The notes beneath the pieces were generated by a model. The model saw nothing but the letters and a program-made list of their open reading frames with translations, was not told where the DNA came from and searched no databases. Made by a program: the position numbers and the translations under genes. 64,000 nucleotides of DNA from Octopus vulgaris (taxonomy: Eukaryota): NCBI GenBank assembly GCA_951406725.2, contig OX597817.1, forward strand, positions 137,454,001-137,518,000, read 5' to 3'. Shown here piece by piece: positions 12,624 to 44,744 of the stretch (the first letter of the stretch is position 1; each line of letters starts with the position of its first letter).

Positions 12624-12916
12624 AACAATTGCAGCGTGGAAGGTGTTTATAAGCCATTTAAAAACACACAAAAACTGTTAGATTCACTTCAACATTTAAA
12701 TTTCAATTTGTGTCAACATATTTTCGTCGCTTTGAGACCACGACCAGTTCCCTGACAAAATGCTCAGATGCAGCACGGAATTTTGTCAGTGAAGAGGTCG
12801 CGGTTTCAAAGCGACGAAAATATTTTGACACAAATGAAATTTAAATGTTGAAGCGAATCCAACGATTTTTGTGTGTTTTTAGATGGTTTATAAACACCGT
12901 CAACGCTGCAATTGTT
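12624..12916. mobile_element. about 290-bp fold-back element with hammerhead-like motifs in both arms, between (TA)n arrays
   Basis: arms are reverse complements (AACAATTGCAGCG.../...CGCTGCAATTGTT); motifs at 12711-12760 (-) and 12781-12830 (+). Confidence 0.85.
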
Positions 12917-13154
12917 TTCGTTCCAAGCACACGATCTCAGATCAGGTCACTTGCTATGCAAGCACATCTCTGTAATATATATATATATATATATATATAT
13001 ATATATATATATATATATATATATATATATATATATATATGTATATATAATTTTAATGTTTCGCTTAGGCATAGTGATACTAAGAACCTTGTGTAAGAAC
13101 TCGATATACATATGTTTCCGGACAAAGCGTCAGTCGAATAGAGAGCAATAAGAA

Positions 13155-13345
13155 GGAATTAGAAGGATAAACAGTTACGTTATGAACTTCATTAGCTTAC
13201 AGCTTTTTCTGCTATAATATGATCGTAGTTGAATGCTTGAGTATCATCCTACCATAGGGTGATACTCGCGCATTCAACTATACCAGAAACAGCTGTTTAG
13301 CTAATGAGGTTCATGACACGATTTTTTTATTGTCATTCTAATTCC
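13155..13345. mobile_element. about 190-bp fold-back element with Penelope-type GAAACAGCTGT half-hammerhead
   Basis: GGAATTAGAA/TTCTAATTCC ends; inner stem TAGTTGAATGC..GAGTATCATCCT-accat-AGGGTGATACTC..GCATTCAACTA. Confidence 0.75.
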
Positions 13346-13917
13346 CTAAGGAAAGAGAAAAGACACATACACACACACGTACACACACACACACACACAC
13401 ACACACACACACACACACACACACACACACACACACACACACACATACACACACACTCACGAAATGATATCTATCAAATCTGACAATGATCAGCCAGGTT
13501 GGTAGACTCCTGCCTGCTATTTTTGCATTTCATATAAAATGAGAAGGATGCGTGCATCGAATATTCATCCATTCTTTCTTCCGGTGGCAAAATAAATTAA
13601 GAAAACTGAAGTTGTCTGAGCATGCATGAGGTTGCTAAATTAGCTGAAAGCATCTCCGAAACATATCAGATGTTTGCTCTGCACCAAGATTTCCAGTCAT
13701 CCATCACAATAGGATTGCATGATTGCACCTGTTGCCTCCAATACTCTGCTATCAACAATTTCACAGCTGTTGAGATGAAGGTTACGTATTTCCTCCACGC
13801 CACACTTAAATAAGATGCAAACATGACACTAACCACACACACACACACACACGCACACACATACACATATGGAAGTGCATGCAAGATCTACAGTGTATAG
13901 GCTGGCTGTTGATCCCC

Positions 13918-14096
13918 CCAAAGAAGCTTGAGAGGCGGTTGGATGGAACCTACACTCGCCTCCTTATGAGAGCTCAAAATCTCTCGTGGAAGCGCCATCC
14001 AACCAAAATGCAAATATATGGGAAATTACCACCTGTGTCATCTCTTGTGAAAGGTAGGAGAGTCCACGGTCGAACAATGATGATGATGATGATGAT
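13918..14096 (+). pseudogene. RTE-clade LINE 3' fragment with (TGA)n tail
   Basis: KKLERRLDGTYTRLLMRAQNLSWKRHPTKMQIYGKLPPVS resembles the RTE post-RT region; ends in (TGA)n. Confidence 0.75.
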
Positions 14097-40443: not shown

Positions 40444-42834
40444 GATTTTAATGTCAAAAGTTAAAATATATCATTGCAGATATGAAGTGTTACGTCATGA
40501 GCGATGGAATAATGTCGGTTGCGTTGTACAGAATGATTTACGCAACGGTCGCCTGTGTACGTATATTTTATGAGATTAGAGCGACTGGATAATGTGATGT
40601 TTAGGTATTCAAGTCTTTTAACACATCGTTGGAGACAAAGGTAATGTCATTTAAATAAATTTATTTCAATAAAACCCAGTTAAACATGATTATTGTTCAA
40701 GGATACTAACCGGACACCGTTTATATAAAACATTCAAGTAGGAGTGTTTAAGAGGTGTAATTGCTCACTCCGTTTAACATGATTACGACGCAACGCTACT
40801 TACCATAATATACATGCAACACTTACGTAGAGGTATATAAGAGAAATATATAGAATATATTTCCTCGTAATCGCACAGATTTAATATAATGTTTCTCGTT
40901 GATATTTTAAAAGCTTCAGCTCAGTTGTTCCAGTGTGAAAGAATAAATGTTGTGAAGAGAAAACGTTGTCGGTGGATGTCTGTGAGGAAGTTTTTTCAAC
41001 AAGGAACAACTTCAAGTGAAGTCTATTTTGAATGTTTACGAGGGAGAATAGCTGGGGAATATTGCTTGAAGCTGTAAACTAACATTGATGTAGGACGTAA
41101 TTAGGCTGACCGATATTTCTATTGTGGCCTAGTTAAGTAGGAAAAGTAGTAGTCTGGCTGAATTAGAGAGACAGACAGAGAAAACAAGCTTGTTTAATGC
41201 CAGTCATCGGTTGGGCAAAAATCTACATTCCTACTCAGTGAAAGGCGGGAGGGAAGGAGGGAGGATGTCTTGTAATTGCTTAATGTCGGAATAACAGGAA
41301 TAAATAACAGCAAATCTCACCAACGACATAACACTATTTTCAATGGACGGTGATGTAGGGCAGCTGATTATATTGTAACGAATTCTGTCTAATCAAGTTC
41401 ATATACAAAGTCTCCCGCACTTTATATTCGACCAATTCCCTAAATATTCCCTCCAAAAACGCATCCATTGAACTACTTACATCCAAAGGGTTTTCTCAAT
41501 TATTCACTGTCCTTAGCCATACCTTAGTCGAACCGTTCAAATGTCACACGGTCGATATCCAATGCTGTGAATGTGTAAAGATGTGATCTTCAAACAGTTT
41601 GCCGCCAAAAGCTGTTTGAGGGGTTGCAATTATTTTGTATTTTCCTATGAATAATTGCCCTTTCGGTAAAGTGTAAAATAATTCAGGCTAACAGGTCGTC
41701 AGAATAGAGATCATTGTTGTAACAGGACATCAGTAAACGACAGTATCTGTAAAATATCCTAATAAATATTCTAATAGTTGTTAACGGTAGTTTCATGCTT
41801 AGCAACAATGTTGAAATTCCGCTAAGGCCAGCTTTGATTTTCATCCTCAGGTAATTAAATCGAACCTACAGTCGTTCCTACAAAAACTTAATCAGTGTTT
41901 GATCATAAGGAGTCAATAGCATTTTAGAACATGACACGGAACTGTGTTTAGGACGGAAGAGAAATGAGAAGCAACGACAAATTGTTCTGTTTACAAGAGT
42001 TTATATGAATAGGAGCGGAGGGTTTCGCAATATGTTTGACAGAGGACATAGCGATCCCGTGTCAGCTTTGCAACACACGGACACACACACTCAAACACAC
42101 ACACACACACACAAACACACAAACACACACACAAACACACACACACATACACACACACTACCATATACGCATATGGTGAACGGCAAATAGTTACATGTTA
42201 CGCTTTCATACAAACTTTCATCCAACTACGTGATGGGAACAATTGATCGTTAGTCCCTTGATAGCCTCACTATTTCAGCTTTTTTGCCAATTGTAAGAAA
42301 TTTTGCTAATTTTCCAGAAAATACTTTCGACATGTTCAACGGTACGAGCATGTCACGTGAAATCTTCGGCTCCTTCACGGACAAAGGATACAACATCAAA
42401 CTGGCGTAGGAACGAGAGTTTAAATGTGAAACTCAAGTAGCAATATATATATATAAATATATGTGTATATATATATATATATATATATATATATATATAT
42501 ATATATACATCTATCTATCTACCTATCTATCTCTCTCTCTCTCTCTCTCTCTCTCTCTCTATATATATATATATATATATATATATATATATATATATTA
42601 TATTATATTATATATTATATATATTACGTTTCTAAATCTCTCAGTGAGGCTTATACAGTAGCAGCACGATAAAGTGATTATATGTTGTCAACTTAATGCG
42701 GCAGTTCCATGAAAGGGAAGAATGCTACTGTTATTTAGCCCTAGGAAACACCGTTTCCTGTTGGACTTGACACATTTCCTGTGTTCTTATGTTTGCAAAG
42801 GGGGAGATAAGCACCTCCACCCAGCAAAGCCATC

Positions 42835-42877
42835 TCCAGAGACTAGTTTCAGAGTCATTGCTCATCCTCAGCCTGGA
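42835..42877 (-). ncRNA. minimal type I hammerhead ribozyme, canonical core
   Basis: TCCAGG-CTGAGGA-T-GAG-caatga-CTC-T-GAAAC-TA-GTC-TCTGGA: 6-bp stem I, CUGANGA, GAAA, palindromic ACTAGT, GUC cleavage triplet. Confidence 0.8.
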
Positions 42878-43023
42878 GTAGCATGGCTTGCTAGCTGTCG
42901 ATGCCTATCTGAGAGATTTAGAAATATATTATTTCTATTTTCAAAAATCAGTGAATGTATTTCACTTGAAATCTAAATGTTCTCAAAGGCGAATAAGCAT
43001 CGACATCTAGCAAACCATTCTAC

Positions 43024-43066
43024 TCCAAACTGATTATGAGTAATGACTCTGAAACTAGTCTCTGAA
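43024..43066 (+). ncRNA. mirror hammerhead copy with G8>U core mutation
   Basis: TCCAAA-CTGATTA-T-GAGT-aatg-ACTC-T-GAAAC-TA-GTC-TCTGAA. Confidence 0.65.
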
Positions 43067-44744
43067 TGCTGGTTTGGCCGGGTGGAGGTGCTTATCTCCC
43101 CTTTGAATACATAAGGACACAGGAAATGTGTCATGGCCAACTGGAAACAGTGTTTCCTAGGGCTAAATAACAGTAGAATTCTTTCCTTTCATGGGACTGC
43201 CACATTAAGTTGGCAGCAAACCATCACTTTATATATATATAGGAGAGTTCACGAAAAAAAAAAAGCAAAAGACGAAGAGAGGCACAGAGAGAGAGGGGGA
43301 GAGAAGAAAAGAGTGACAGAAACAACCAGAGAAACAAACAACATGGAGAAGGAAGGATGGATGGTTTGTTGAATGAATACATGTATAAATGGGTGGGTGG
43401 GCGGCTAAACGTGAAAACCAGCGGGAAACATTATTCCCCTCTTCATATTCTCATCCTTTCGGGGCCCTGTAAGACTAGTGAGAGACAGCTTAGGAAGTGA
43501 CTGATGGAATTTCCTCAAATGGAAGGAACCACAATGGAGTCTGCTGAAAATAAGTACCGAAGGAGGACAGGGTCAAGTGTTGTTGTTGTAGTCGTTGGTG
43601 ATAGTGGTGGTGATGGTGGTGGTGATGGTCGCGGTGATGATGGTGGTGATGGTGGCGGCGGCGGCGGTGGGTGATGGATGAAAGCCCAACTGTTGGATTT
43701 TGGGGACAGAATCTGAATTTATTTTTATTTTTCGTAATTTACGGAAGGAAGTAAGGAAGGGAATGAAGAAAAGGAGAGAAGGGAGGAGGGAAATGAAGGG
43801 GTGAGAGAAAGAAGTTTAATGGAAGGAGTTGGAGGAGAAGGAGGAGAGAGAGGAAAGCAGTGGTAGGAGGCTTTTCAAGTGGCGATAGAAAAGGAAGTTC
43901 AGTTAGTGAACCATTTCAGAAGACTTAAACCGACAAAAACTTTGAAAGATTGAAATGTGTGGGTGGTGCTTGGGGTGGGGGTGAGGTACATGGTGTGTGA
44001 GGGGTGCTGTTTGAGGGGGTGTATATGTAAGGGGGAGTAGATGTGTATGCGTGGGTGGTATATGAGGTTTGGAGGAGAGAAGGGCACCTGGTAGGTGCAT
44101 CAGTGTGAGGGGTGGATGTGTGCGTGTGGGTGGGTGAAATGGGGTGGCTCATATTGTGTGATGTCTCTGGAACTGGTAGAGGGTGGTTGGGTGTGAGGAT
44201 GTGGGGAAAAGGGGACGCTAAAGCTGTGGCTTTTCTGTAGACAATAGATTTCTGTGTGTGTTCGTGCGTGAGTCGATGAGTGGTTTGTAAGTGTGAGGTG
44301 GTGGTGTATTAGAGTGACTGTGGCTGAGTACTCCGCAGACAATCTATGACATGGTTAACCCTTTCAATTACAGATATTGCCTCTCCTCCAACACAGTCGA
44401 TCTGATTTCACCCAAAAAGACTTGGGTCAACCAGAGGCTGTTGTGGAAGTTAATTGGTCTAAGTGTCACAGGGTGAGATCGAAACTGGGTACTGGTGATT
44501 GCGCAGAAAACTTTGAAAAATCTTTCGCAGGGTAGCATCAATAAACAGGCGTCGGCATACGACGTCGATGTTTATTTTGTGGTTATTTACGGGTGGCAGT
44601 AATTTATTCAAAGATTAGAAAGAAAATAAAGGGGCGGTGTGATGATAAGAAAATATCAGGCGGGGGTAGGGAGATAGACAGTAGCAGTTAGCTGTCACGC
44701 AAATCTACACACACACACACAAACGTGTGCGCGCATATATATAT

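What the first reader, a model, noticed from the sequence alone, without database searches (positions are those of the whole stretch)
12624..43232. Same architecture in four unrelated sequences: a class of ribozyme fold-back elements near (TA)n
Palindromes at 12624-12916, 13155-13345, 34795-34935 and 42669-43232 share no obvious primary sequence. All have the same polarity: inversion centre upstream of a GAAA plus palindromic stem III (AAATATTT, ACAGCTGT, ACTTYGAAGT, ACTAGT), with pLTR-like 3' ends pointing outward, and they lie in or near microsatellites. Inference: a recurring mechanism, such as fold-back priming or template switching near the ribozyme 5' end during Penelope-type reverse transcription, makes these units and seeds long dsRNA hairpins in an editing-rich lineage.
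Basis: inference. Interest (0 to 1): 0.75.

Follow-up and report, generated by a model that had tools for sequence, protein, structure and literature searches.

The report
Twin-primed Penelope hairpin insertions, four families
These four mirror-image stretches are old copies of four unrelated short, ribozyme-bearing passengers of Penelope-like jumping genes; the lopsided mirror shape is already published, and here it is rebuilt at each insertion, likely by copying the RNA from both cut ends of the target DNA.

Summary
All four palindromes are real and unrelated. Each belongs to a dispersed family (F1-F4) whose consensus carries a minimal type-I hammerhead. They are asymmetric, head-to-head insertions of non-autonomous Penelope-like (PLE) units, with one arm carrying a 55-105-nt tail. 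This is the published PLE 'inverted pLTR plus tail' structure, not a new class.

F1 has 810 head-to-head junctions against 3 tail-to-tail. Junctions vary (46 types in 50), and 10-13-bp target duplications flank 9 of 12 scorable copies. 32 of 34 pair one tailed with one untailed arm, and arms share rare variants. In 14 of 42 the untailed arm reaches further 5', so neither arm copies the other. This argues against simple fold-back and for two cDNAs primed at both nicks and joined by microhomology (inferred).

A centre near the ribozyme holds for F1 and F3 only. Only 1 of 8 window arms passes the strict hammerhead descriptor. F1 (about 9,000 arm matches, young subfamilies) carries a swapped G3-C8 core; cleavage is untested. 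RNA editing evidence is only suggestive. The scan noted twin-primed PLE palindromes and G3-C8 cores before on other DNA, the latter also in this genome.

The parts
12624..12756 (-). F1 short (untailed) arm, inverted; hammerhead-like motif 12706-12757 with decayed core
12757..12784 (.). F1 head-to-head junction in the 5' leader; junction sequence differs from copy to copy
12770..12976 (+). F1 long (tailed) arm of a ~210-nt non-autonomous PLE-like unit
12782..12832 (+). F1 minimal type-I hammerhead-like motif; core 12789-12795 is G3/G8 in this copy, family majority G3/C8; predicted cut after 12825 (U17)
12917..12976 (+). F1 tail (~60 nt) between the two 3' end sites; followed by (TA)n
13050..13255 (-). 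F2 long (tailed) arm, 5'-truncated inside hammerhead stem II; tail about 13050-13155
13255..13345 (+). F2 short arm: stem II remnant, GAAA, palindromic stem III; no CUGAUGA
34716..34870 (-). F3 long (tailed) arm, decayed hammerhead; tail about 34716-34790
34860..34941 (+). F3 short arm; centre 34864 in a 9-nt odd palindrome within stem I; decayed core 34867-34873
42613..42909 (-). F4 tailed arm, starts 38 nt 5' of the core; tail equals the start of the next ~349-nt monomer
42834..42878 (-). F4 hammerhead with intact canonical core and GUC site; the only strict descriptor hit among the eight arms
42905..43232 (+). F4 untailed arm, starts 126 nt 5' of the core; core 43030-43036 decayed (G8 lost)

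Best explanation
The four palindromes are insertions of four unrelated short non-coding families with hammerhead motifs and the Penelope 'inverted arm plus tail' layout, rebuilt at each insertion (shown for F1), likely by twin priming with a Penelope-like enzyme borrowed in trans. Steps: (1) shown: each family has a fixed unit with two alternative 3' ends about 55-105 nt apart; (2) shown for F1: the whole palindrome sits in a 10-13-bp target duplication in AT-rich or (TA)n DNA; inferred: a GIY-YIG endonuclease made a staggered cut; (3) inferred: both nicks prime reverse transcription, one at the distal (tail) start and one at the proximal start, probably on the same RNA, since arms share rare variants and are nearly always one tailed plus one untailed; (4) inferred: the two cDNA 3' ends anneal through short microhomology, often at a quasi-palindrome in the leader, and fill-in leaves a head-to-head palindrome; if only one cDNA is fixed a solo copy results; (5) inferred: the hammerhead is a passenger that does not set the turning point, and in a hairpin transcript it would be paired off by the antisense arm.
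For: Dispersed families: 5078, 327, 252 and 3040 first-look candidates. Hammerheads in all four alignments. 810 head-to-head against 3 tail-to-tail junctions. In the first 50 listed F1 junctions (all on contig 1): 46 distinct junction types, 32 tailed+untailed, 2 untailed+untailed, 0 tailed+tailed, 16 with a degraded arm; p = 3e-8 to 5e-9 against independent choice of ends. Arm distance 0.044 within against 0.097 between copies; 19 rare non-CpG variants shared by both arms against 1.1 in permutations, max 8 of 3000. Among 42 copies with a tailed long arm, the untailed arm reaches 3 or more nt further 5' in 14, the tailed in 15, tie in 13 (rough parser); L267, L275, L284 have a full-length untailed arm with a tailed arm lacking 31-72 nt. 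Solo copies end at either site (5 tailed, 3 untailed of 8). Target duplications in 9 of 12 copies without (TA)5 flanks against 0.8% of mismatched pairs. Zero-loop (L195, L206) and 1-nt-loop junctions. Tailed+untailed pairing recurs in F2, F3 and F4. Autonomous RT + GIY-YIG PLEs with hammerheads and inverted pLTRs exist in this genome. In vitro, a PLE protein cuts and extends both strands and starts at two sites that bound the tail (PMC11167929).
Against: No autonomous partner with a matching pLTR among 50 GIY-YIG loci examined (30 of 150 listed hits as 3-kb loci plus 20 7-kb stretches, partly overlapping). The priming steps are inferred from end products. One RNA against two RNAs of one source locus cannot be told apart; 20 copies have arms discordant at core position 8. 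Detailed tests were done only on F1; F2-F4 samples are biased by the palindromic query. No target duplication is evident by eye at the four window copies (microsatellite flanks, old copies). The 5'-extent parser mis-scored some mutated junctions.
Confidence: 0.65

Rival explanations
1. Fold-back or self-priming (first reader; self-priming on an antisense template in PMC3846280): one strand turns back near its end and is copied into a hairpin, whose ends the endonuclease then trims to leave the tail on one side.
For: Arms share rare variants and subfamily markers. Junctions cluster within about 20 nt of the unit's 5' end in F1 and F3. Published proposals.
Against: The tail is not tied to the 5'-longer arm (15 against 14). 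Each arm often holds sequence the other lacks. Zero- and 1-nt-loop junctions leave little or no room for an intramolecular primer, though a 2-bp primer with a 3-nt loop is not excluded. Solo copies end at the same two sites.
Confidence: 0.2
2. The palindrome itself is the mobile unit (MITE-like or a self-propagating hairpin retro-element), copied whole from master palindromes.
For: All 40 scored hits of the F1 palindrome query are near-full palindromes; two junction strings recur 3 times each among 50.
Against: A single-arm query gives 11 of 28 distinct other loci with an inverted arm and 10 of 18 in a pattern-based sample. 46 junction types in 50; the commonest occurs in both orientations relative to the tail. 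Ends are asymmetric; partner arms are variably truncated.
Confidence: 0.07
3. Two independent insertions of the same family side by side, later homogenised by gene conversion or cruciform repair.
For: Families are abundant (about 9,000 F1 core matches) and favour the same (TA)n targets.
Against: One target duplication spans the whole unit (9 of 12); 810 head-to-head against 3 tail-to-tail; 32 of 34 tailed+untailed.
Confidence: 0.03

Closest known systems
EN+ Penelope-like element insertions with a head-to-head inverted 5'-truncated pLTR and optional 30-40-bp tail (Pen2a_Av, PMC3846280; PMC8557442 Fig. 2 legend)
   Same: Head-to-head polarity, variably truncated inverted arm, tail on one arm only, target duplication around the whole unit, palindromic junction, microsatellite bias.
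   Different: No ORF between the arms; tails longer (about 55-105 nt); hundreds to thousands of copies per family; junction data favour two primed cDNAs over self-priming.
Minimal type-I hammerheads of metazoan PLEs (PMC4209133), including dual min-HHRs 100-700 bp apart on opposite strands
   Same: Short stem I, unpaired base after position 9, GAAA, palindromic stem III; U3-A8 variant also present in this genome's autonomous PLEs.
   Different: F1 has G3-C8 and U17; F3 often has C at position 4. G3-C8 was seen only as a laboratory double mutant in the passages read.
Non-LTR retrozymes as non-autonomous PLE derivatives (bioRxiv 10.64898/2026.07.22.740005)
   Same: Non-coding, type-I hammerhead, PLE-dependent; F4 is a ~349-nt monomer with partial tandems.
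   Different: Mostly solo or inverted rather than tandem arrays; that preprint's main text has no hit for 'palindrom' or 'head-to-head'. Circular RNA not tested.
L1 twin priming (recalled, not from a call)
   Same: Both nicks prime; cDNA ends joined by microhomology; 5' inversion inside one target duplication.
   Different: In L1 the two segments do not overlap; here both arms copy the same stretch from two fixed start sites.

Membership tests
Non-autonomous EN+ PLE derivative | Type-I minimal hammerhead in the unit | tested here: met
   Family alignments; F1 with a variant core. Rfam listing (top 150 of 307 rows) showed no hammerhead family.
Non-autonomous EN+ PLE derivative | Inverted 5'-truncated copy joined head-to-head | tested here: met
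Non-autonomous EN+ PLE derivative | Optional 3' tail, on one arm | tested here: met
   tails longer than the published 30-40 bp.
Non-autonomous EN+ PLE derivative | Target duplication and AT/microsatellite bias | tested here: met
   F1 only: 9 of 12 duplications; (TA)4 in a flank in 21 of 32 against 7.7% background.
Non-autonomous EN+ PLE derivative | pLTR homologous to an autonomous RT + GIY-YIG element | tested here: inconclusive
   Autonomous PLEs exist but none of 50 loci had an F1-F4 pLTR; only part of 6136 candidates seen.
Active hammerhead ribozyme | Conserved core with a 3-8 pair, window copies | tested here: not met
   Only the F4 minus arm passes the strict descriptor; F1 plus arm is G3/G8; F2 truncated; F3 decayed.
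Active hammerhead ribozyme | Conserved core with a 3-8 pair, family level | tested here: met
   F2, F4 canonical; F3 C3-G8 with C or U at 4; F1 G3-C8 in 91 of the first 100 of 9041 matches.
Active hammerhead ribozyme | Self-cleavage | not testable with these tools
   No pile-up of read ends in three fragmented RNA-seq runs, which cannot show it.
Non-LTR retrozyme | Tandem repeats with a hammerhead in two or more consecutive units | tested here: inconclusive
   F4 shows partial tandems; F1-F3 loci held were solo or inverted; full arrays not searched.
MITE | Symmetric fixed termini, moving as a whole | tested here: not met
   Asymmetric ends, many solo arms, variable junctions.

The most novel reading that the evidence does not exclude
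PLE integration is intrinsically two-ended on a single RNA: a dimeric RT/endonuclease primes one nick at the tail start and the other at the proximal start of the same transcript, so the tail, the inverted pLTR and the target duplication are three marks of one reaction. The youngest, most abundant family here (F1) does this while carrying a natural G3-C8 hammerhead that still cuts, and its hairpins feed A-to-I editing.
Probability: 0.3. Interest if true: 0.65.

Novelty: new member of a known kind. Interest (0 to 1): 0.4.

Why it matters
The shape is known, but how PLEs make inverted ends is open (PMC8557442 names it as a task). F1 offers 810 or more independent junctions, with young subfamilies at 0.4-1.7% divergence, whose end types, shared variants and microhomologies separate twin priming from fold-back and tie to the two start sites seen in vitro. 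The G3-C8 core in about 9,000 copies tests whether PLE hammerheads need to cut at all. Many dispersed hairpins could supply editing substrates, but that is not shown here.

Tried and rejected
Rfam scan: the 150 listed rows of 307 were microsatellite-driven miRNA-type matches below gathering score, no hammerhead. Whole-window repeat finder was swamped by microsatellites and SINEs. A C3-G8 version of F1 with F1's own loop: 0 matches; the two C3-G8 hits belong to a different family. Autonomous partner: a Pfam family I asked for was not in the library; the GIY-YIG route found PLEs but no F1-F4 pLTR; F1, F2 and F4 hits near those ORFs were separate insertions or weak. Long ORFs in held loci showed no adjacent PLE ORF by eye. 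Editing of the template as the source of arm-shared variants: A>G 4 of 26 shared against 22 of 177 one-arm variants, no enrichment. Low variation of the F1 core was not used, because the search pattern fixed those bases. PMC5785218 (small PLE hammerhead variants) is not held and may describe G3-C8. Sequence look-up of F1 in earlier findings: nothing. No structure or complex prediction was run.
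Full report
OBSERVATION. Self-BLAST of the masked window and direct alignment confirm the four palindromes, with arm identities of 87, 71, 68 and 82%. They show no mutual similarity (6 of 6 pairs, |z| at most 0.5). The window lies at G000:C4:137454001-137518000 in a 2.8-Gb genome. That it is an octopus is my guess from recalled SINE sequence and genome size, from no call. Each palindrome belongs to its own dispersed family: 5078 (F1), 327 (F2), 252 (F3) and 3040 (F4) first-look candidates, 40 scored each.

RIBOZYMES. 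Alignments of 29, 28, 27 and 22 loci (duplicates dropped) give minimal type-I hammerheads in all four families. F2 and F4 have the canonical CUGAUGA core, F3 has C or U at position 4, and F1 has G3 and C8 with an extra G after position 9 and U17. In the window copies a relaxed descriptor hits only the F1 plus arm and the F4 minus arm (0 of 300 shuffles reach 2 of 4); the strict one hits only F4. The F2 centre is inside stem II, so neither arm has the first core strand, and F3's cores are decayed. The F1 core pattern has 9041 matches against 5 in the control. Of the first 100 listed, 91 are G3/C8, 2 are C3/G8 and 7 are unpaired (counted by eye). The two C3/G8 hits are a different family with a similar scaffold and a compensatory change in stem II. 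A young F1 motif folds into stems I and II (z = -3.5), the window copy less well (z = -2.1), and the C3/G8 relative not significantly (z = -0.4).

ANATOMY. F1 is a unit of about 210 nt with a 5' end about 20 nt before the core and two 3' ends about 60 nt apart. It is often solo: 11 of 28 distinct other loci from a single-arm query have an inverted arm, as do 10 of 18 arms from a pattern sample (17 of the first 23 rows plus one picked for its core). Solo copies end at either site (5 and 3 of 8). Genome-wide there are 810 exact-core head-to-head junctions against 3 tailed-to-untailed tail-to-tail junctions (other types not searched). In held loci the counts were 39 head-to-head and one tail-to-tail locus, listed twice, among 91. 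The centre lies near the ribozyme only in F1 and F3. F4 arm starts run from -146 to +178 relative to the core, and F2 partner arms start at many points.

MECHANISM TESTS ON F1. I fetched the first 50 listed of the 810 junctions, all on contig 1. They show 46 junction types. End types are 32 tailed+untailed, 2 untailed+untailed, 0 tailed+tailed, and 16 with a degraded arm, set aside; p is 3e-8 or less against independent choice. Arms of one copy are closer than arms of different copies (0.044 against 0.097) and share 19 rare non-CpG variants against 1.1 expected; the query-biased set of 29 agrees. Of 32 copies with canonical ends, 12 lack (TA)5 flanks and 9 of these have 10-13-bp target duplications, against 0.8% of mismatched pairs. 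(TA)4 flanks 21 of 32, against 7.7% of random window positions. Among 42 copies with a tailed long arm, the untailed arm reaches further 5' in 14, the tailed in 15, and 13 tie (rough parser). Three pattern-sample copies have a full untailed arm beside a tailed arm lacking 31-72 nt. In such copies neither arm can be a copy of the other. Common junctions sit at a 7-nt quasi-palindrome in the leader, and some have zero or 1-nt loops, as annealing of two cDNA ends would give. Against a pure one-RNA reading, 20 copies have arms discordant at core position 8. Subfamily groups diverge 0.4-4.6% from their consensus. Tailed+untailed pairing recurs in F2, F3 and F4, in query-biased samples.

AUTONOMOUS ELEMENTS. 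A GIY-YIG search gave 6136 candidates, 150 scored, many in identical 781-aa frames. [quoted passage not shown] Relatives carry U3-A8 hammerheads. Another family (L256) has a C4 core and a perfect 766-bp inverted terminal repeat. None of the 50 loci examined had an F1-F4 pLTR, so the partner is unidentified.

RNA. No indexed RNA holder was listed. Three raw RNA runs of one study, under a species label other than the best DNA holder's, gave 1392-1942 reads on the F1/F2 stretch, on both strands, some spanning strand-switch joints near the F1 centre. Most are under 95% alike, so they come from many loci. Three reads carry 9 T>C changes in 36 bases relative to a stored copy. On a young arm, A>G plus T>C places number 40-50 against 31-32 for C>T plus G>A in RNA, but 7 against 14 in a contig run of another species label. 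This is suggestive of editing, but confounded by species and paralogues.

LITERATURE. PMC4209133 (parts 1-2 of 4 read): minimal hammerheads in pLTRs, dual motifs on opposite strands 100-700 bp apart, U3-A8 variant. PMC3846280 (passages): inverted pLTR, tail, target duplication, self-priming proposal. PMC8557442 (passages): inverted 5'-truncated copy, 30-40-bp tail, microsatellite bias, mechanism open. PMC11167929 (parts 1-2 of 4, passages): both strands cut and extended, two start sites bounding the tail, predicted dimer, C3G/G8C partial rescue, cleavage not needed in vitro; no link to inverted copies in the passages found. PMC3088659, PMC6765202 and PMC8495972: passages only. PMC5785218 not held. 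Searches for a natural G3-C8 core listed two papers; I read one passage of one (laboratory rescue only) and saw only the listing of the other (PMC3884650). The search for twin priming with Penelope or pLTR listed no paper holding both twin priming and pLTR. L1 twin priming is recalled.

EARLIER SCAN NOTES. My reading was recorded before the first look-up. Four notes on other genomes reach the same twin-priming view, and several report G3-C8 hammerheads, two in this genome. They are not independent evidence.

VERDICT. The architecture is the known PLE inverted-pLTR plus tail structure in non-autonomous form (about 0.9). Twin priming is the best mechanism (0.65) and fold-back the main rival (0.2). 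The ribozyme does not set the turning point. New member of a known kind; interest 0.4.

Noticed in passing
window 5321-5356 (+): A fifth hammerhead-bearing short family (short stem III); similar sequence in 10 other held loci.
   Followed up: partly
window 48365-48458 (-): A sixth hammerhead, canonical core with a very long stem II; a 93% identical copy in L014.
   Followed up: partly
window 27869-28400: 530-bp element with ~200-bp terminal inverted repeats (72%), no hammerhead hit; a shorter relative in L028. MITE-like.
   Followed up: partly
window 40256-40407: Palindrome made of two copies of the abundant SINE-like repeat, no hammerhead hit.
   Followed up: no
window 39226-39597: Perfect 184-bp tandem duplication of a SINE-like repeat (100% identical); very recent or an assembly artefact.
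   Followed up: no
window 59926-60342: Short-period tandem array (about 43-92-bp offsets, ~86% identity).
   Followed up: no
L133/L134 (G000:C7:57884880-57885597): A double F1 structure: two head-to-head palindromes joined by their short arms at the same internal point.
   Followed up: no
L245-L250, L224, L228, L233: Young autonomous Neptune-like PLE (781-aa RT + GIY-YIG frame in many copies); related copies carry a U3-A8 hammerhead. With F1 and F2/F4, three 3-8 pair states occur in one genome.
   Followed up: partly
L256:1821-4983: PLE copy with a 574-aa frame and a 100% identical 766-bp inverted terminal repeat, hammerhead (C4 core) on both ends.
   Followed up: partly
L265, L266 (position ~1001): C3-G8 hammerhead-like family with the same start as F1's motif and a compensatory stem II change; downstream sequence unrelated.
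   Followed up: partly
window 12764-12770 and 12964-12969: The F1 leader's first bases are complementary to six bases near the tail end, so the RNA ends could pair.
   Followed up: no
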